Source: a virus. Taken from it: DNA of 64,000 nucleotides. The position numbers and the translations under genes were made by a program. The DNA is taken from positions 1 through 64,000 of IMG/VR virus record IMGVR_UViG_3300016466_000859; one strand, 5' to 3'. The notes below the pieces were generated by a model, which saw nothing but the letters and a program-made list of their open reading frames with translations, did not search any database and was not told the DNA's origin. Below are positions 4,934-11,337 of this stretch, in pieces (the stretch's first letter is position 1; each line of letters begins with the position of its first letter).

Positions 4934-5091
4934 CTGGTCTGTATCTGGAATGATCGGAATTTCAGTTCCCATCTGATGCTACTCGCGGCCTGCTGGCAGG
5001 CTTCCAGACTGGGCATCTCTATCTCTACCCTGCCGGGTACGTCTCGTGGATCGTTCACGTGAACCGCTATTATTATCAGTAGCCACATCAT
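4915..5091 (-). CDS. Hidden 58-aa protein overlapping the plcP-like 3' end and the GT4 start
   Basis: MMWLLIIIAVHVNDPRDVPGRVEIEMPSLEACQQAASSIRWELKFRSFQIQTRCEKKS; AGGAG SD at 5096-5100; stop overlaps the GT4 start; below the ORF track's 60-aa cutoff. Confidence 0.65.
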   Translation of the reverse strand: MMWLLIIIAVHVNDPRDVPGRVEIEMPSLEACQQAASSIRWELKFRSFQIQTRCEKKS

Positions 5092-5845
5092 CTTTCTCCT
5101 GAGTCCAGGTCACTATTTCCCAACGACCGTCGTGATGCTCTACTAGAGCTGTCATAGACTCTACCCAGTCTCCGTCATTCATGTAACGGATTCCGTTGAT
5201 GTCTTTGATTTCTGCATGATGTATGTGCCCGCAGATCACTCCGTCAAAACCTCGCTTCTTGCAGTAAGCAGCGAGATTGTTTTCAAATTGGAATATAAAG
5301 TCCACGGCTTTTTTGACACGAGCTTTGAGATATCGGCTCAAGCTCCAATATCCAAATCCCATGCGATGTCTTAGCCAATTGAATTTGCTGTTGAGGCTCA
5401 GCACAAAATCATAGGCTTTGTCGCCCAAGAAACTCAACCAAGGTGCCAGTCTGGTGATGCCATCGAATAGGTCACCGTGGGTGACCAAATAGTGCTGACC
5501 ATCCACTCCCACATGCTCGCACTGGTTGACTATTTCTACCATGCCAAAGCCAATGCCGTAGGGCATGAGAAGCCTAAGAAACTCGTCGTGATTGCCAGCA
5601 ACATATATGACTCGGGTGCCGCGTTTGGCATGCCCTAGAATGCGACGTATCACATTAGTATGGCTTTGTTTCCAACGCCATTTGTTTTGTTGTATCTTCC
5701 AGGCATCAATGATGTCGCCCACAAGATAAAGAGTTTCACAGGTATTGTGTTTGAGAAAGTTGTTGAGTTGTTCAGCTTTACAGTCTTTGGTACCAAGATG
5801 CACATCTGAGATGAATATAGTGCGATAGGTTTTTTCTTGCGGCAT
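4979..5845 (-). CDS. plcP: LpxH-like metallophosphoesterase, probably phospholipase C PlcP
   Basis: ISDVHLG, LVGDIIDAW, GNHDE (His where LpxH has GNRD), HGDLFD, ICGHIHH, NDGDWVES; adjacent to an Agt-like GT4 and pstS. Confidence 0.75.
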   Translation of the reverse strand: MPQEKTYRTIFISDVHLGTKDCKAEQLNNFLKHNTCETLYLVGDIIDAWKIQQNKWRWKQSHTNVIRRILGHAKRGTRVIYVAGNHDEFLRLLMPYGIGFGMVEIVNQCEHVGVDGQHYLVTHGDLFDGITRLAPWLSFLGDKAYDFVLSLNSKFNWLRHRMGFGYWSLSRYLKARVKKAVDFIFQFENNLAAYCKKRGFDGVICGHIHHAEIKDINGIRYMNDGDWVESMTALVEHHDGRWEIVTWTQEKDDVATDNNSGSRERSTRRTRQGRDRDAQSGSLPAGRE

Positions 5846-5851
5846 AGCACA

Positions 5852-5857
5852 TATTTA
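5852..5857 (-). promoter_or_regulatory. Late-promoter core TAAATA 6 nt upstream of the plcP-like ATG
   Basis: + strand TATTTA; the same hexamer precedes many structural genes in this window. Confidence 0.5.
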
Positions 5858-5888
5858 AACGATTTCTAGCTTTTGAAAATAACTTATT

Positions 5889-5906
5889 ATGACTTTGATG
5901 TTACAA
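5889..5906 (-). promoter_or_regulatory. Weaker Pho-box-like site upstream of the plcP-like gene
   Basis: - strand TTGTAAC-ATCA-AAGTCAT; two half-sites at 11-bp spacing, each 5/7 to consensus. Confidence 0.45.
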
Positions 5907-5953
5907 GATTCGCTTGCGCGAATCTATCGCTTTCGCTCAGTCGCTCAGCGATA
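5906..5953. repeat. Twin hairpin with four TCGCT/AGCGA repeats
   Basis: AGATTCGC-TTGC-GCGAATCT (5906-5925) abuts TATCGCT...AGCGATA (5925-5953); TCGCT at 5910, 5927, 5933 and 5941. Confidence 0.7.
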
Positions 5954-5984
5954 TTTTTTACTATCAGGTTATTGTTTGTTTTTA

Positions 5985-6376
5985 AGTATCATCCAGATTA
6001 ATCAGCCACACTTTGCCCGTTGCCGGGCAAAAATGGTATGCATCATCCGAGTAGCACAACCACTTAGCGTTGGGACTATCAGCATCTCTGCTGGCGCAGG
6101 CGGTCATCCGGTACCTGCTCATCCCGTCTTTGTATGACGGCGGGCACTGCAACATACGCTAACACATCGCAGAGCCGTGTGAGTTTTGTTAATCTCACAT
6201 CCTTTAGCCTTGAATAAAGAACATTTGTCTTACAGCGAAACTGGTTGAAGAAGGCGTATCCAGTCATCGTCCTGCGAAGGATAGTCGCTGTATGCTCGCG
6301 GCGGCGGCGAGACTTCGGTCCCCGTGACCCAAAGGTCCGGTTGTCATCGGCACACGTATTTGGCCTGTGCTAGCCT
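5985..6376 (-). ncRNA. Unassigned large structured RNA (~390 nt) directly downstream of the GIY-YIG gene
   Basis: GC-rich intergenic stretch with about 10 helices, GNRA tetraloops and two candidate pseudoknots (see findings); no credible ORF; matches no tRNA, tmRNA, RNase P or group II intron signature I recognise. Confidence 0.7.
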
Positions 6377-6820
6377 TTACTCGCTGAGAGGAGCCTGGAG
6401 TTTGCCCTTGATGTGGGAGCCATGTACACGGACTTGGATGTGTCCGTTATAGTAGTCGTTGGATTCTAAGACTTGGTGTCGGAATTGTTCGCGTGCCTCG
6501 ATGTAGCTGCATTCGGCCTTTGACTTGCAGTAGAAGAGTATCTCTCTAGTGAAGTTTTCTGGGCCCAAAGCTTCCACATCTCGATTGAGTTCGTCGTTGC
6601 TGCCGTAATAAGTTTGCCAGTCGCTTTCGATTTTGCCTTTGATTTTCTTGCGTTTCTTTTTGCCGTTTTTGAGTTTTACAGTCTTGTAAGTGGTTCTTGA
6701 GAATTTTGCCAGTTTTTTACCAATGTATTTCCTGCCCGAAATCTTGTTCGTGATGAGATAAACGAAGCCTATGCAGTCGTCGGGCAAGGTTTCTATGGGT
6801 GAATTCTCGAAAAGCCACAT
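6377..6820 (-). CDS. GIY-YIG family endonuclease (short, T4 Seg/EndoII-like)
   Basis: GFVYLITNKISGRKYIGKK, DWQTYYGS, FTREIL, EAREQF...YYNG; basic insertion KNGKKKRKKIKGK. Confidence 0.8.
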   Translation of the reverse strand: MWLFENSPIETLPDDCIGFVYLITNKISGRKYIGKKLAKFSRTTYKTVKLKNGKKKRKKIKGKIESDWQTYYGSNDELNRDVEALGPENFTREILFYCKSKAECSYIEAREQFRHQVLESNDYYNGHIQVRVHGSHIKGKLQAPLSE

Positions 6821-6849
6821 GTGCAGTCATAGTTATCTTTTTATCGCTC

Positions 6850-7320
6850 TCAGAGGTTTTTTTCATAGATCCATCCGAGATTTTCTGTTTCGTGTATCCA
6901 CGTGTAGATGGGAAACTGCACAGGCAATACCCATAAACCGTTCCAACCCAGGTAGTTGCTTTGTATCGATGGTTCCAGCACAATGCCCTGTTGTTCGCAA
7001 GTTTTTTGATAATCTTTAGGATACCTGGGCCAATATCTGGCCTGATGCATAAAACTATCAAAACTCATCTCTTCGAATGCCACGCTTTCAACAACGACGG
7101 CCTTGTCGAGGTTTTTTTCTACCACAGTGTCGTGGTCGTACTTGTTGTAAAACTCTACTATTAGCCTATGCACTCCTGCAGCACCAACAACACGGAAAGT
7201 TTTGTTGTGGGAATGATCTAGTGCGCCACGAAACAAAACCTGGCTGTCCCAGCTTATTTCAATCTCGGGACAATCGTCCCAGAACACCGGCTTCAATGAG
7301 ATATCAATGACGGTATCCAT
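6850..7320 (-). CDS. Hypothetical protein
   Basis: 156-aa ORF coupled to the upstream radical SAM gene; YLGWNGLW...PIYTWIH C-terminus. Confidence 0.65.
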   Translation of the reverse strand: MDTVIDISLKPVFWDDCPEIEISWDSQVLFRGALDHSHNKTFRVVGAAGVHRLIVEFYNKYDHDTVVEKNLDKAVVVESVAFEEMSFDSFMHQARYWPRYPKDYQKTCEQQGIVLEPSIQSNYLGWNGLWVLPVQFPIYTWIHETENLGWIYEKNL

Positions 7321-8611
7321 ATATCCTTAACCAATCTGTTGCTTCGGGTATGAAATCTTTGATGCTCTTGTTGTATAACTCATCCTGCTCGCTGAGTCGG
7401 GCTGCCATTTCCCGCCGTAGCATGTCGACGTCGCCGGGCTCGGCTTTCCGAAGATGACGTATCAAAGATTCTGCTTCGTTTTTCAGAGTTATTTCCACAT
7501 TGTTGGGATTTTTGGTATTGTTAAACTTTTCTCCTTTGACCACAATTGAATCAGCAAAATCTTGCAAATGTCTGATTGTAAATTCTTTGAGATTGACGGG
7601 CAAGAGATCTGACAGCATCCATCGAGGTCTATTTGGATAACTGGCATCAATGGGTATCCTGCGATCAAGTGCGTGTTGCAACAGTGTGTGGTATCTTAAC
7701 ACACTCAAAGCAGTGGGCACGGTGCGGAAAGTCCACTGCACCCGTGGCATAGATTCTCGCATGTGATCTACATTGCGTAAAATCTGCATGATGTCGGCGC
7801 CTTGTCTAAGATAGTCGTTGGCACGATCAGCAGTCTCTATACTGACTCCGATCTCCACACGATTAAATGTTTCGAGCTGTGCGCGATATTTGCTGTAATC
7901 TATGCTGCCATTGGTGGTAAAAGATAGATTAAGCCAAGACATTTTTTTATCAGCAAACATCCTCAATAGGTCACGGAAACTTTCGATCAATTCAGGCTCG
8001 CCTCCGATAATGTGCACCACACGCACATATTGATAGTTGGTGTCAAACCAGTCAACGAATCTTTGCCAGGCCACCGGATCTTGAGTCCATGTCTCTAACC
8101 GATAATCGTTTGCGATCCATCCCATCTTTCTTTGATCTTGTGCCACGCGACTGGAGGCTTCGGGCGGACAGAATTTACAGCTGAAATTACATGTGGTTCC
8201 GATGTTGAGGTGCAGGCTAGCGATGCGAGTAACTGTTTCTCCATCGTGGCCGCGGCTGTGATCAAAATACTGCTTGTGCGGACTTTGCTCGAAACTACGA
8301 TCGAATTTTTTGTGAAAGATCACAGATTTGAGATTTTCTTTTTGTCTCGCTGAAGTATAACCGGCTGCGTCTTTCATCTGGCACATGCGGCACATGGAAT
8401 CAACCGTGTCGCCCAATTTAATCAATCGCTTTTCACGCATCCTGGTACTGTTCCAGTAGTCGTCGATGCCGATTTTTTTGATATTCCACTCGCGACCCAG
8501 TTCGGTCATTATGATCTTGTCGTTTTGGCACCCACAGAGATCATAGCTGCCATCATGATTGATGTTGAGCTCAAACCAAGGTATGTTGCAGAATATGTCT
8601 TTATTGGCCAT
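7304..8611 (-). CDS. Radical SAM protein with N-terminal Twitch-like domain
   Basis: CNFSCKFC, IIGGEPEL, FTTNGS; N-terminal FCNIPWFEL...DLCGC...CRMC. Confidence 0.9.
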   Translation of the reverse strand: MANKDIFCNIPWFELNINHDGSYDLCGCQNDKIIMTELGREWNIKKIGIDDYWNSTRMREKRLIKLGDTVDSMCRMCQMKDAAGYTSARQKENLKSVIFHKKFDRSFEQSPHKQYFDHSRGHDGETVTRIASLHLNIGTTCNFSCKFCPPEASSRVAQDQRKMGWIANDYRLETWTQDPVAWQRFVDWFDTNYQYVRVVHIIGGEPELIESFRDLLRMFADKKMSWLNLSFTTNGSIDYSKYRAQLETFNRVEIGVSIETADRANDYLRQGADIMQILRNVDHMRESMPRVQWTFRTVPTALSVLRYHTLLQHALDRRIPIDASYPNRPRWMLSDLLPVNLKEFTIRHLQDFADSIVVKGEKFNNTKNPNNVEITLKNEAESLIRHLRKAEPGDVDMLRREMAARLSEQDELYNKSIKDFIPEATDWLRIYGYRH

Positions 8612-9584
8612 GCTTACATTTAAATCGGCATATGTCAGGAGGAAACATTTCCCATCTCATTTTCAGTTCTTGCCAGCAGGCATCGGCCAGCACAGCATCG
8701 AATCCTCGCTCTCGCACGTTGATGGTGTCGTGATACTTTTTCAAGAAATCGTTTTCCATGTAGCCGGATCCAAACCAAGCACAAGGAAAGAAACGCCCAT
8801 CCACACTGACAAAAGGCATCTGTGTACCGTTGAGGCACTTGGCCCAGTGATTGGTGTCTCGGATCGCCGGTGGAAAAGTATACCCACGGTGTAATTTAAC
8901 CACAAATTTTGAGTAGCTTTTTTCTTCTTTGTAGTCGCCCGGATCCAATGGATCGAACCCATCGGGATCCAAGTATCTGGGATCGTTGCTGCCAAATTTC
9001 ATGCTTTTTACGATGTCAAATTGATCAACACCCAAGGTTCGGGCAACACCTTTTATTTCTTCGAGTTTATGCATGTTGAACCTAAAAACAATGGTGCTCC
9101 AGCGCAGGTTCACATCGCTGTGTTTTTTTAGAATTTTGATACCCGAGACAATGGAATCCCAATCGCTGTTGACGCGATATATCCTATTGCTGTCGTGATC
9201 CCATCCATCTACACTGAATGTCACCCGATCGCGTTGGTCCAAGTTACTGCCAAGACGTTGCCACCAATTGGTGTCTTTGTAGCTGCCGTTGGTGACGATG
9301 TTGATTTGAGTGGTTTTAGATGTTTGTTTGATATATTCGATGATTTCTAGAAAATCTCTAGCATAGATAGGATCGCCGATATCACCGCAGAAACTCAAGT
9401 ATTTGATCTGCGACAAGATTTCTTGAGTGAACAGGTGCTGGAATTCGTTGAGACTGTAGTCTCGATTGATGTATGGATGATTCTCTGGCATTTCGGTGCG
9501 AGGACATCTAGGACATTTGAGCACACATTTAGAACTCAGCTCCACATGCAAATGCGTAAGGTCAAACACCAATGACCTCGACAT
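8601..9584 (-). CDS. Radical SAM protein with C-terminal Twitch/SPASM-like domain
   Basis: CVLKCPRC, FCGDIGDPIY, IVTNGS, FSVDG; C-terminal KCLNG...DGRFFPCAW...CRFKC. Start at 9584 or TTG 9572. Confidence 0.88.
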   Translation of the reverse strand: MSRSLVFDLTHLHVELSSKCVLKCPRCPRTEMPENHPYINRDYSLNEFQHLFTQEILSQIKYLSFCGDIGDPIYARDFLEIIEYIKQTSKTTQINIVTNGSYKDTNWWQRLGSNLDQRDRVTFSVDGWDHDSNRIYRVNSDWDSIVSGIKILKKHSDVNLRWSTIVFRFNMHKLEEIKGVARTLGVDQFDIVKSMKFGSNDPRYLDPDGFDPLDPGDYKEEKSYSKFVVKLHRGYTFPPAIRDTNHWAKCLNGTQMPFVSVDGRFFPCAWFGSGYMENDFLKKYHDTINVRERGFDAVLADACWQELKMRWEMFPPDICRFKCKHGQ

Positions 9585-11337
9585 CAGTGTTGTAGGTAGT
9601 GAAACCGTTTTCTTTGACCACATGCATGATGTTGTTGACACGTCCAGCCAATTCGTCTTTGTGAGACACTAACCATATGCTGCGATTCATGTCGCGGCTC
9701 ATTTTCTTGAGTATGGCCAAGGCGTTTTCCACGCCCGATGCATCCATGCCCGAGTCTACTAGCTCGTCAATGAATAGGAGATTAATAGGCTGGTAGAGCC
9801 CTTCCCAGACATCGCGGAATGCCCAGCTCAAGGAAAGTATCAATCTATTTCTTTCGCCGCGGCTGAGATTGTCAAAGTCCAGATCTCGGCCTAGCTCGGT
9901 GATTTCCACGGTGAGATCGTTTTGGAATTTCACTGTGTGCGGCAACCCAATACGGTCTAGATAGTAGCCAAGTCGCTGATTTAGATAAGCAAGATTCTGA
10001 TCGATGATGCGTTTGCGAACAAACGAATCTTTATTGGTCAACAGTTTTAACAGAAACTCCTGGTGGTCTTTGACACGTGATAGTTCATTGATGACATCAT
10101 AGCTGATCTCGCCCTTGGCAGCTTCGCTCATTTCTTCGATTTGTTCTCCGTAGGGATCTTGCTCGTTGCTTCGCGTGGCAAGATTGTTTTTGAGAGTATC
10201 CAGGGTATTGCGATGATTGAGTGCATCTTCTAGAGTATCGTAGAACACCTGCGGCGGATGACGCAAATCACCTAACTCTAATAATGCGGCCTTGATGGTT
10301 TTGATTTCATCGGTGATGGTCAGTGATTGCTGTTGTGATTCTGTCAGCGACGATTGCTTTTCTTTTAATATTTCATCTTGCTTGGCGTCGTGCAAATCCT
10401 GCCCACAGGCATAGCAACGATGTTCTCTGAGAGACGCGATTTCTTTTTCCAGTTTTGCTGCCAACTTGTTGAGACGATCTAAATCAGATTCGCCTTGCCG
10501 CTGGGCCTTGGCTAGATCTCCGCGGACTTTTTGTTCTTCGTTGAAAGCCGCGAGATCTCTGTGTGACTGAATTTCAGCATCAATGTCGATCTTTTCCAAT
10601 TCTGAAATTCCAGTCTGCATCTTGTCGCAGTCTTCATCGCGTTTGGCAACCCATAAACGCTGTCGTTTGCGCAAGCTCTCAATCTGCTCTTCGATCTTGG
10701 CGTTGGCTTCTTGTACCGCTCTGATGCGCATCTCTTCTTGTGCAATGGCATCTTTGGTGATCTTGATCTGCTCTTTGAGACTGTCGGCCTTTTCAGACAG
10801 CAAGGTAATGCCCAAGAGTTGCTCGATGATATTTCTTTGATCATTGGCTCTAAGCGCCAAGAACGGCTCGGTATAGGTGTTGAGAGCGACCACATGTTTG
10901 AACATTTCGTGCTCCATGCCCAGCATTCTTTCGATGTGGGCTTGGGTTTCTCGGCTGTCTCCCTGTGCGTCGTCGGTGATTTCCTGTTCGTTGCCGGCCA
11001 CCCAAAATTTCATGACGTTGGGTTTGCGCCCTCGTTCGATGCGATACTCAATTCCGTCCTTTTCAAACTCGATGGTGACTAACAGATTTTTACCATTGGT
11101 TTTGTTGATGAGATTGTCTTTTTTAATGTTGGTCAAGGCATTGCCGTAGAGAGCATAGCTCAAGGCATTGATGATGGTGGTTTTGCCTGTGCCGTTTCTC
11201 GCACCCGAATCGTCGCCACCTAGGTCTAAATTTTCGCCCAGAACCAACGTGAGATCTCTGCGATCAAAGTTTACTGCCTGCGTGGCATTGCCCACGCTCA
11301 TGAAGTTTTTTACAGACAGAGTTTTAATTTTGAACAT
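9562..11337 (-). CDS. gp46: Recombination endonuclease ATPase subunit (Rad50/SbcC-like, T4 gp46)
   Basis: KNFMSVGN, Walker A ARNGTGKT, coiled coil with CYAC zinc hook, LSRGE signature, FIDELVD, SH. Confidence 0.95.
   Translation of the reverse strand: MFKIKTLSVKNFMSVGNATQAVNFDRRDLTLVLGENLDLGGDDSGARNGTGKTTIINALSYALYGNALTNIKKDNLINKTNGKNLLVTIEFEKDGIEYRIERGRKPNVMKFWVAGNEQEITDDAQGDSRETQAHIERMLGMEHEMFKHVVALNTYTEPFLALRANDQRNIIEQLLGITLLSEKADSLKEQIKITKDAIAQEEMRIRAVQEANAKIEEQIESLRKRQRLWVAKRDEDCDKMQTGISELEKIDIDAEIQSHRDLAAFNEEQKVRGDLAKAQRQGESDLDRLNKLAAKLEKEIASLREHRCYACGQDLHDAKQDEILKEKQSSLTESQQQSLTITDEIKTIKAALLELGDLRHPPQVFYDTLEDALNHRNTLDTLKNNLATRSNEQDPYGEQIEEMSEAAKGEISYDVINELSRVKDHQEFLLKLLTNKDSFVRKRIIDQNLAYLNQRLGYYLDRIGLPHTVKFQNDLTVEITELGRDLDFDNLSRGERNRLILSLSWAFRDVWEGLYQPINLLFIDELVDSGMDASGVENALAILKKMSRDMNRSIWLVSHKDELAGRVNNIMHVVKENGFTTYNTDVEVIGV

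What the first reader, a model, noticed from the sequence alone, without database searches (positions are those of the whole stretch)
5985..6376. Unassigned ~390-nt multi-domain RNA with two candidate pseudoknots
Seen (- strand pairings, + coordinates): long-range closing stem UAGCACA/UGUGCUA (6366-72 with 6052-58); UACAGCGA/UCGCUGUA (6285-92 with 6231-38) enclosing ACUGG/CCAGU, whose loop GCCUU (6251-55) can pair with AAGGC (6207-11); UGUGAG/CUCACA; a hairpin loop UUAGCGU (6156-62) complementary to ACGCUAA (6064-70); CCGUC/GACGG; GCAGG/CCUGC; CAGCA-GAGA-UGCUG and UUUGCCCG-GCAA-CGGGCAAA with GNRA loops. Inference: this density of helices, tetraloops and pseudoknots is typical of large ribozyme-like or RNP RNAs (HEARO, GOLLD, ROOL scale), but it fits no class I recognise.
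Basis: partly seen in the sequence, partly recalled or inferred. Interest (0 to 1): 0.88.

Follow-up and report, generated by a model that had tools for sequence, protein, structure and literature searches.

The report
Full-length Polynucleobacter-1 phage RNA
The gene-free stretch behind a small nuclease gene of this uncultured T4-like freshwater phage encodes a real, multiply knotted RNA of about 390-470 bases, but its first third is the orphan Rfam motif Polynucleobacter-1 and much of the rest was already drawn in that motif's 2010 alignment; what is still unexplained is a 7-letter word that it carries twice, always identical.

Summary
On 129 distinct relatives, 78% of cells in the 3' domain are paired against 41-47% for slid controls, with 0 of 500 shuffles as good.

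It is not unassigned. Window 6230-6375 (- strand) matches Rfam RF01718, Polynucleobacter-1, full length at 99.3 bits (cut-off 37). The raw 2010 alignment of that motif already annotates a 3' "tail" with helices and a pseudoknot.

The RNA lies after gp46 in hundreds of uncultured T4-like phage contigs. It usually follows a 142-147-aa GIY-YIG gene, sometimes a PD-(D/E)XK gene or no nuclease. It also sits in nuclease-free integrase islands of Polynucleobacter chromosomes, so a nuclease guide is unlikely.

Its oddest feature is two 7-nt boxes, GGAUGAU here: one in a hairpin loop, one in the 3' tail. They are identical in 129 of 129 RNAs although the word changed dozens of times.

Function is unknown. 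My best guess (about 20%) is an RNA II-like R-loop or primer element. This scan has already found the same RNA in many other genomes.

The parts
6377..6820 (-). 147-aa GIY-YIG-only nuclease gene (SegE-like domain, no DNA-binding domain). It is the usual upstream neighbour of the RNA.
   Evidence: Pfam PF19835, E = 3e-34, covering residues 2-128. Best PHROG is phrog_447. At least 597 viral contigs encode relatives at 70-86% identity.
5986..6376 (-). Core of the structured RNA: the 5' domain and 3' domain through the second box.
   Evidence: nhmmer finds the whole length in 36 loci and the 3' 250 nt in 69 of 80 GIY-YIG loci. Covariation is shown.
6230..6375 (-). 5' domain, which is Rfam RF01718 Polynucleobacter-1 (helices P1-P6).
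   Evidence: cmscan gives 99.3 bits against a gathering score of 37, model positions 1-141 of 141. P1-P6 pair counts on 80 sequences are.
6252..6255 (-). PK0, 5' strand: the GCCU in the P6 loop, which pairs with 6207-6210.
   Evidence: Compensatory variants GCC/GGC, GCU/AGC, ACCU/AGGU and UCC/GGG. This contact ties the Rfam domain to the 3' domain.
6207..6210 (-). PK0, 3' strand: the AGGC of the conserved AAGGC linker.
6143..6176 (-). P8, a long hairpin whose loop (6157-6162) forms PK2.
   Evidence: helix 2: 12 pairs, all with changes on both sides.
6064..6069 (-). PK2, 3' strand, which pairs with the P8 loop at 6157-6162.
   Evidence: helix 3: 88.5% paired. Mutual information between columns 54 and 141 is.
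6134..6138 (-). PK1, 5' strand (GUCAU). It pairs with 6103-6107 (AUGAC) in the P10 loop.
   Evidence: GC:80, UA:79, UA:57/CG:23, GC:63/AU:14. Also, helix 4.
6096..6118 (-). P10 hairpin with the near-invariant loop GGUACCGG...ACCGCC.
   Evidence: helix 6 (99.2% paired). Invariant columns are listed.
6072..6125 (-). P9 (6121-6125 with 6072-6076), which encloses P10 and the variable insert P11 (6080-6093).
   Evidence: helix 5: pair types GC:38 CG:26 GU:25 UA:10 AU:6 at one pair.
6034..6062 (-). P12 hairpin, which presents box R1 in its loop.
   Evidence: The box is enclosed by at least 3 bp in 118 of 127 sequences. Compensating stems can be seen.
6042..6048 (-). Box R1 (GGAUGAU).
   Evidence: Identical to R2 in 129 of 129 sequences at columns 160/214 and 164/218.
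6012..6031 (-). P13, an 8-bp hairpin with a GCAA loop, lying between the boxes.
   Evidence: helix 12: 94% paired, with UA:56/CG:45, GC:68/AU:40 and CG:87/GC:34.
5988..5994 (-). Box R2 (GGAUGAU), 54 nt after R1. Sequence conservation ends just beyond it.
   Evidence: There is no conserved hairpin around it.
5906..5953 (-). Two downstream hairpins (5925-5953 and 5906-5925) with GAGCGA repeats and a GCAA loop. They are possibly the 3' end of the transcript or a DNA-level signal.
   Evidence: Read. Equivalent hairpins follow the RNA in phage loci and in all Polynucleobacter island copies.

Best explanation
SHOWN. This is the full-length form of the Polynucleobacter-1 RNA, Rfam RF01718. It is one RNA gene of about 390 nt, or about 470 nt with the two trailing hairpins. 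It consists of the catalogued 5' domain (P1-P6) joined through pseudoknot PK0 to a 3' domain (P7-P13) that has two further pseudoknots. It is carried once in the 131 kb held of this uncultured T4-like freshwater phage.

The RNA is an autonomous, conserved gene. The small GIY-YIG nuclease gene in front of it is a frequent neighbour, probably a freestanding homing-type endonuclease parked beside a conserved sequence, and not an obligate partner.

INFERRED, about 20%. The two boxes carry an arbitrary, fast-changing word that must always match, and no third partner for it exists. They therefore most likely read each other through the complementary strand. In this model the R1 loop of the nascent RNA pairs with the template DNA strand of R2, as an upstream RNA segment contacts downstream template DNA in ColE1 RNA II. 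This would seed a persistent RNA-DNA hybrid that serves as a primer or origin signal. The integrase islands of Polynucleobacter would have copied that signal.

The 0.8 confidence given below applies to the identity and autonomy claims only.
For: Identity. RF01718 matches full length at 99.3 bits and matches 14 related loci at 48-120 bits. PK0 links the Rfam domain to the 3' domain by compensatory changes. The 3' domain shows strong covariation.

Phage context. Synteny runs from an SbcC/gp46-like gene, through variable radical-SAM genes and the nuclease gene, to the RNA, followed by convergent baseplate genes. The held part of the genome has one copy.

Autonomy:
- The RNA follows a PD-(D/E)XK gene (PF24608) instead of GIY-YIG in L106, L118, L127 and L155.
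- It follows a MazG-like or amidoligase-like gene in L108 and L172.
- An extra ORF separates the nuclease gene from the RNA in about 9 loci.
- The GIY-YIG family occurs in 445 cultured T4-like phages. None of those records matches the RNA by blastn, and in the four loci inspected the gene is followed directly by coding genes.
- 13 of 121 Polynucleobacter genomes carry the RNA. In the nine copies inspected it lies in islands with a 188-aa tyrosine recombinase and an AAA ATPase and no GIY-YIG.

Boxes:
- They are identical in 129 of 129 sequences, with at least 14 words in the main set and further ones in outliers.
- On a tree of the rest of the RNA, parsimony gives 34, 23 and 19 changes at box positions 1, 5 and 7, in both boxes each time.
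- No complementary partner was found in the RNA or its locus.
- R1 lies in a hairpin loop and R2 in an unstructured stretch.
- 3 of 9 island copies have mismatched boxes, so identity is selected rather than automatic.

Transcription hint. A 190-nt metatranscriptome contig, 98% identical, spans the end of the ORF and the start of the RNA.
Against: There is no direct evidence of function. The RNA ends are not mapped, and the only RNA-library evidence is one low-depth contig that could be DNA carry-over.

Against the R-loop idea:
- The 30 nt after R2 are not purine-rich (0.53 against a background of 0.54).
- GC skew shows nothing.
- Known T4 origins do not use ornate RNAs (my own knowledge).
- Three conserved pseudoknots would suit a protein-binding or catalytic RNA just as well.
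- A 7-bp RNA-DNA contact is short.

The tight linkage to nuclease genes of two unrelated folds (most of the 91 pattern-found RNA loci with upstream sequence) remains unexplained by simple neighbourhood.
Confidence: 0.8

Rival explanations
1. Regulatory or sponge RNA. The folded body is a scaffold, and the two boxes are twin binding sites for one reader: a dimeric protein, or two copies of a trans nucleic acid.
For: Two identical single-stranded sites 47-74 nt apart resemble dual-site RNA decoys. The ornate conserved fold suits protein binding. R1 is displayed in a loop.
Against: The word changes dozens of times between close relatives, always in both boxes. A protein reader would have to change specificity each time. 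A trans RNA reader would tolerate G/A differences between the boxes through wobble pairs, yet none is seen in 129 sequences. No copy of the box word elsewhere in the 131-kb genome, on either strand, shares a recognisable context with the boxes.
Confidence: 0.25
2. DNA-level element. The boxes are recombination or homing sites, for example the 7-bp overlap of a tyrosine-recombinase core site, which must be identical between partner sites, or the cleavage and immunity sites of the neighbouring endonuclease.
For: An identity requirement on an arbitrary 6-8-bp word is the hallmark of tyrosine-recombinase overlap regions (my own knowledge). The Polynucleobacter island copies sit about 1 kb from a small tyrosine recombinase. 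Nuclease genes of two unrelated folds flank the RNA in phages. One natural variant, L086, lacks R1 to P13 and keeps a single box.
Against: No recombinase gene was seen in the phage loci. Spacing of 47-74 bp is too short for excision. The arms around R1 co-vary as a hairpin rather than being conserved as protein-binding arms. The RNA fold around the boxes is under selection.
Confidence: 0.1
3. Ribonucleoprotein nuclease. The RNA guides or scaffolds the domain-only GIY-YIG (or PD-(D/E)XK) nuclease, with the boxes acting as programmable specificity elements.
For: The nuclease lacks a DNA-binding domain. The RNA starts 1-2 nt after its stop codon. The linkage holds down to 38% protein identity. 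The boxes are variable words set in a constant scaffold.
Against: The RNA occurs without any nuclease gene in phages (L108, L172) and in the 9 Polynucleobacter island copies inspected. The same protein family is present in 445 cultured phages, none of which matches the RNA by blastn. Two unrelated nuclease folds would both have to bind the RNA. Extra ORFs are tolerated between the gene and the RNA.
Confidence: 0.06
4. Self-splicing or self-cleaving ribozyme, for example a degenerate group I intron carrying its homing endonuclease.
For: GIY-YIG genes are typical of phage group I introns (my own knowledge). The fold is pseudoknotted. Short R- and S-like strings occur in this window.
Against: No group I, group II, hammerhead or other ribozyme family appears even at E <= 10 with lax filters, or at gathering score in 40 related loci. 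No interrupted host gene flanks the element. The R/S-like strings are not conserved in relatives. No contig joins across R1-R2 in the runs laid, which is a weak observation.
Confidence: 0.03

Closest known systems
Polynucleobacter-1 RNA motif (Rfam RF01718; Weinberg et al. 2010, Genome Biol 11:R31, PMC2864571)
   Same: The 5' 146 nt match the model full length at 99.3 bits. The position just downstream of a GOS11034-type gene, shown here to be a GIY-YIG nuclease, is the same. The habitat (fresh water, Polynucleobacter) is the same. The 2010 raw alignment already shows a 3' 'tail' with helices and a 7-bp pseudoknot.
   Different: The Rfam model stops at 141 nt. I did not find the following described: the loop-linker pseudoknot PK0, PK1, the P12/P13 module, the twin boxes, the T4-like phage carriers (the 2010 text found none in purified phages), or the alternative 5' domain in about half of the loci, which Rfam does not detect.
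ColE1 RNA II, the plasmid replication preprimer
   Same: A long, folded, cis-acting transcript in which an upstream RNA segment contacts downstream template DNA to fix a persistent hybrid that RNase H turns into a primer. That logic would explain why two same-sense boxes must be identical. This is a resemblance in logic only, drawn from my own knowledge.
   Different: There is no sequence or fold similarity and no Rfam link. No antisense RNA I equivalent was seen. No hybrid, primer or origin activity has been shown here. The host is a T4-like phage.
T4 SegB and the T4 tRNA / stable-RNA gene cluster
   Same: A freestanding GIY-YIG homing endonuclease gene embedded beside conserved structured-RNA genes of a T4-type phage (my own knowledge; compare PMC13096335, found and not read).
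   Different: SegB has a DNA-binding part and its neighbours are tRNAs. The nuclease here is domain-only, and homing has not been tested.
   Same: Size class, several pseudoknots, and links to phages or mobile elements.
   Different: No model of these families matches. No IscB or TnpB gene is present. The fold is different.

Membership tests
Rfam RF01718 Polynucleobacter-1 | Score at or above the curated gathering score, over the whole model | tested here: met
   99.3 bits against 37, model positions 1-141 of 141, E = 3e-20 on the 64-kb window.
Rfam RF01718 Polynucleobacter-1 | Consensus helices formed and co-varying | tested here: met
   In the cmscan alignment the consensus helices are formed. 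On 80 relatives P1 is 100% paired with compensation, and P3, P4 and P6 are at least 93% paired.
Rfam RF01718 Polynucleobacter-1 | Lies downstream of a GOS11034-type gene (2010 supplement) | tested here: met
   It starts 1-2 nt after the stop codon of the GIY-YIG gene. The same arrangement holds in 69 of 80 loci. That GOS11034 is this GIY-YIG family is inferred, not tested.
Rfam RF01718 Polynucleobacter-1 | Optional 3' 'tail' with pseudoknot, as in the 2010 raw alignment | tested here: met
   The tail helices and PK2 are present and co-vary. The tail annotation was seen.
Group I intron (RF00028) carrying a GIY-YIG homing endonuclease | Match to the intron core model, and an interrupted host gene | tested here: not met
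   No match at E <= 10. The flanking genes are unrelated to each other and vary between loci.
RNA-guided nuclease RNAs (HEARO/omega RNA type) | Obligate linkage of the RNA to its effector gene, and a match to the RNA family | tested here: not met
   No Rfam match. The RNA is found without a nuclease gene, and none of the 445 cultured-phage records that carry the nuclease matches the RNA.
ColE1 RNA II-type preprimer | Persistent RNA-DNA hybrid and RNase H-made primer at an origin | not testable with these tools
   Only the logic of same-sense box identity fits. Purine content and GC skew give no support.

The most novel reading that the evidence does not exclude
The twin boxes are a self-referential RNA-DNA recognition device. 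The R1 loop of the nascent RNA pairs with the template strand of R2 and locks a persistent R-loop. That would make this ornate RNA the preprimer of a replication origin of giant T4-like freshwater phages, an origin that small integrase islands of Polynucleobacter have copied in order to be replicated by the phage.
Probability: 0.15. Interest if true: 0.8.

Novelty: new member of a known kind. Interest (0 to 1): 0.42.

Why it matters
Polynucleobacter-1 has sat in Rfam since 2010 as a 141-nt orphan "sRNA". This work and the earlier follow-ups of this scan show four things:
- The catalogued motif is only the head of a much larger, triply knotted RNA.
- The RNA is common in uncultured T4-like freshwater phages.
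- It is not tied to its nuclease neighbour.
- It carries an unusual signal: two boxes that co-vary by identity rather than by complementarity.

That signal gives a clean experimental handle. One can mutate one box, the other, or both. If the boxes read each other through the DNA template, this would be a new kind of phage origin or primer RNA. If not, the work still corrects the family model and the "NAD synthetase" misannotation of the neighbouring gene family.

Tried and rejected
- Third partner for the boxes: exact direct and reverse-complement 7-mers were searched over whole loci. None sits at a consistent offset.
- Apparent third copy in the P5/P6 region: it does not co-vary with the boxes.
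- Mutual information of the box columns against all columns gives only the sister box.
- Other occurrences of the word in the 131-kb genome share no context with the boxes.
- A conserved ORF through the boxes is ruled out, because the spacing of 47-74 nt is not kept in frame.
- Purine richness after R2: none.
- GC skew: uninformative.
- Promoter and terminator scan: nothing on the RNA strand next to the RNA.
- blastn of the RNA against 50,697 cultured phage records: no match.
- Public reads: the contigs laid show no joint between R1 and R2. The RNA run covers only 6318-6507 and a 37-nt conserved core from a relative. Uncovered parts say nothing.
- The hammerhead-like string in the trailing hairpins (UGAUGAG...CGAAA) has no substrate strand and gave no Rfam hit.
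- Group I-like R/S strings in this window are not conserved.
- mafft-qinsi was not installed.
- No covariance model was built, because the domains exceed the practical calibration size.

Full report
COORDINATES. The RNA is on the minus strand. I use N = 6381 minus the window coordinate, so N1 is window 6380.

WHAT IS THERE. The window is the first 64 kb of a 130,947-base IMG/VR virus record that CheckV rates 37% complete.

- ORF 6377-6820 (-) is a 147-aa protein made of a SegE-type GIY-YIG domain and nothing else (PF19835, E = 3e-34).
- The stretch from its stop codon to the next large ORF (4979-5845) holds no ORF longer than 62 aa on the RNA strand.

KNOWN FAMILY. cmscan against Rfam 15 finds one family in the whole window: RF01718, Polynucleobacter-1, at 6230-6375 (-). 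The score is 99.3 bits against a gathering score of 37, covering model positions 1-141 of 141. With lax filters, nothing else in 5700-7400 reaches E below 0.4.

The only paper in the library that names the motif is Weinberg et al. 2010 (PMC2864571).
- Its supplement says the RNAs lie downstream of GOS11034 genes, which may be related to PSSM2_218 of cyanophage P-SSM2.
- It says the 3' half is not always detected.
- It says none was seen in a purified phage.
- Its raw Stockholm file carries sequence well past the Rfam model, as far as the second box described below.
- That file annotates a "tail" subfamily with extra helices and a 7-bp pseudoknot.

RELATIVES AND CONTEXT.

In the 80 loci kept, iterated nhmmer finds the RNA just 3' of the gene in 69; six of the other eleven loci are cut off within about 160 nt after the gene. 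There are two forms.
- Full length: Rfam hits of 48-120 bits.
- Alternative 5' domain: a shorter, different 5' domain that Rfam does not detect, joined to the same 3' 250 nt.

The gene order is conserved:
1. an SbcC/gp46-like gene (phrog_77, E = 7e-106);
2. a variable set of radical-SAM and other genes;
3. the nuclease gene;
4. the RNA;
5. usually convergent baseplate-hub and other genes.

These are T4-like phages. Some contigs reach 337-347 kb.

A scan that did not depend on the protein used the near-invariant P10 loop as a DNA pattern. It gave 120 loci, of which 91 hold the RNA.
- Most have a GIY-YIG gene (38-86% identity) directly upstream.
- L106, L118, L127 and L155 have a PD-(D/E)XK nuclease (PF24608) there instead. 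In L106 an RNase H gene lies between it and the RNA.
- L108 has a MazG-like gene upstream and L172 an amidoligase-like gene, with no nuclease.
- In about nine loci an ORF of 238-356 aa sits between the nuclease gene and the RNA.

The GIY-YIG family itself occurs once per genome in 445 cultured T4-like phages: cyanophages, Sinorhizobium phiM12, Methylophilales phage Melnitz, Acidovorax ACP17. It is often mislabelled "NAD synthetase". None of the 50,697 cultured phage records matches the RNA by blastn, and in the four loci inspected the gene is followed directly by coding genes.

MAG contigs labelled Polynucleobacter (87% protein identity), Haliscomenobacter and Bacteroidetes carry the pair too. 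These are probably binned phage DNA.

Thirteen of 121 Polynucleobacter species genomes have RF01718 on the chromosome, some of them twice. The nine copies I fetched are full-length RNAs. None has a GIY-YIG gene. All share one neighbourhood: a divergent DUF6641 gene, a 188-aa tyrosine recombinase, an AAA ATPase and unknown genes. That is a small integrative island.

STRUCTURE.

5' domain, tested on 80 distinct full-length sequences:

| Helix | Positions | Result |
|---|---|---|
| P1 | N11-15 / N27-31 | 100% paired; AU:59/GC:20, AU:63/CG:15 |
| P3 | N70-73 / N83-86 | holds |
| P4 | N91-96 / N143-148 | holds |
| P6 | N116-121 / N137-142 | holds |

It is not compensated: AU:59 against CU:13, and CG:45 against CU:21. 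It is a chance complement in this window.

3' domain, tested on alignment A1 (129 distinct sequences). My structure gives 78.2% of cells paired against 41-47% for slid partners. The covariation score is 0.323 against 0.06-0.10, and 0 of 500 shuffles reach it.
- Supported helices: P7, P8, P9, P10 and P13.

Pseudoknots:
It physically ties the Rfam domain to the tail.
- PK1 (N243-247 with N274-278, inside the P10 loop) is new here. Its pairs are UA:57/CG:23 and GC:63/AU:14.

THE TWIN BOXES. The strongest covariation in the whole 3' domain is not complementary. It is identity between two same-sense segments about 54 nt apart:

| Columns | Letters observed |
|---|---|
| 160 / 214 | GG:69, AA:59, UU:1 |
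| 164 / 218 | GG:66, AA:62, CC:1 |
| 166 / 220 | UU:96, AA:31, GG:1 |

The single mismatch at columns 166/220 is an alignment slip.

- Each box is a 7-nt word, GGAUGAU here: R1 at 6042-6048 and R2 at 5988-5994.
- R1 is preceded by A-CUC and R2 by A-UCU. Up to three more upstream letters are often shared.
- At least 14 words occur in the main set. More occur in outliers and in the islands.
- On a tree built from the rest of the domain, parsimony needs 34, 23 and 19 changes at box positions 1, 5 and 7, each time in both boxes. Randomly shuffled labels need 44.
- No complementary or third partner was found in the RNA, the locus or the 131-kb genome.
- R1 sits in the loop of a hairpin whose stem compensates. 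It is enclosed by at least 3 bp in 118 of 127 sequences.
- R2 lies in a stretch with no folding signal. Conservation ends just after it.
- In the bacterial islands 3 of 9 copies have mismatched boxes. Identity is therefore selected in phages, not automatic.
- One phage variant, L086, lacks R1 to P13 and keeps a single box.

EXPRESSION. Twenty public runs from nine studies hold the stretch or part of it. Nineteen are DNA metagenomes (lagoon, freshwater, aquaculture) and one is an RNA library.

The metatranscriptome has a 190-nt contig, 98% identical, spanning 6318-6507. That covers the end of the nuclease ORF and the first 58 nt of the RNA. It hints at co-transcription, but depth is low and DNA carry-over cannot be excluded.

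No sigma-70-like promoter or intrinsic terminator lies on the RNA strand next to the RNA.

Two further hairpins (5906-5953) follow the RNA. They carry GAGCGA repeats and a GNRA loop. Equivalent hairpins follow the RNA in other phages and in every island copy, so the unit may extend to about 470 nt.

HOW IT MAY WORK.

Shown: it is an autonomous, strongly constrained RNA gene of a phage lineage and of islands in a likely host genus.

The nuclease gene is probably a homing-type neighbour, for three reasons:
- two unrelated nuclease folds occupy the same slot;
- some RNAs have no nuclease gene;
- the protein family is widespread in cultured phages whose records do not match the RNA.

Inferred: an arbitrary word that must be the same twice, that has no outside partner, and that sits once in a loop and once in an open stretch is most simply read through the complementary strand. 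The R1 loop would pair with the template DNA of R2. This is the logic by which ColE1 RNA II fixes its persistent hybrid (my own knowledge). It would make the RNA a primer or origin element, and it would explain why integrase islands copy it.

I put this at about 20%. Nothing tested here supports it beyond the logic, and purine content and GC skew give no help.

Rivals:
- a twin-site decoy for one reader (about 25%);
- a DNA-level recombination or homing site (about 10%);
- a nuclease RNP (about 6%);
- a ribozyme (about 3%).

EARLIER WORK OF THIS SCAN. After my own analysis I looked up earlier notes. The same RNA has been followed up in at least fifteen other genomes, with the same reading: an extended Polynucleobacter-1 "twin-box" RNA whose reader is unknown.

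One note proposed a replication signal and reported the nuclease-free Polynucleobacter islands. I re-tested the islands and they hold.

VERDICT. This is a real RNA and a member of a known orphan family. The remaining interest lies in the unexplained twin boxes and the unknown function.

Noticed in passing
window 5906-5953 (-); L230-L238; tails of L017, L032, L038: Two hairpins follow the RNA everywhere. The first has a loop with repeated AGCGA and reads like a hammerhead enzyme strand (UGAUGAG..CGAAA), but it has no substrate strand and gave no Rfam hit. The second is a 7-8-bp stem with a small loop. They are conserved from phages to the Polynucleobacter islands.
   Followed up: partly
L230-L238 (Polynucleobacter chromosomes, e.g. 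G039:C1:2130772-2130906): 13 of 121 Polynucleobacter genomes carry the RNA. In the nine copies inspected it lies in a conserved island of about 7 kb with a 188-aa tyrosine recombinase, an AAA ATPase, DUF6641 and unknown genes. Some genomes hold two copies (G113 has them 18 kb apart). 3 of 9 copies have mismatched boxes. The island looks like a possible phage satellite.
   Followed up: partly
L106, L118, L127, L155: A PD-(D/E)XK nuclease of about 170 aa (PF24608, phrog_244 RusA-like) replaces the GIY-YIG gene directly upstream of the RNA. In L106 an RNase H gene lies between it and the RNA.
   Followed up: partly
L005, L006, L008, L010, L038 and about 30 other loci: About half of the phage loci have a different, shorter 5' domain of about 110 nt that RF01718 does not detect. 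It is joined to the same 3' domain. Its fold was not worked out.
   Followed up: no
L086:8244-8760: A natural deletion variant. The RNA runs from the P9 3' strand straight into box R2 and lacks the PK2 3' strand, R1 and P13.
   Followed up: no
window 6377-6820 (-); H1-H30: The small GIY-YIG family (phrog_447) is annotated 'NAD synthetase' in many GenBank T4-like phage records. It has a GIY-YIG domain (PF19835) and the name looks like a propagated error.
   Followed up: partly
window 7304-11337 (-) and L002-L081: The interval between the gp46-like gene and the nuclease gene is hypervariable. It holds one to three radical-SAM/SPASM genes and other cassettes in different combinations.
   Followed up: no
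L003, L004, L022, L025, L034, L043, L053, L073, L078: An extra ORF of 238-356 aa (clusters 19, 23, 36) is inserted between the GIY-YIG gene and the RNA. In other loci the same ORF families lie downstream of the RNA on the other strand.
   Followed up: no
window 5940-5952 (+): A terminator-like hairpin with a T-run on the + strand, antisense to the first trailing hairpin. It could stop transcripts running into the RNA gene from the other side.
   Followed up: no
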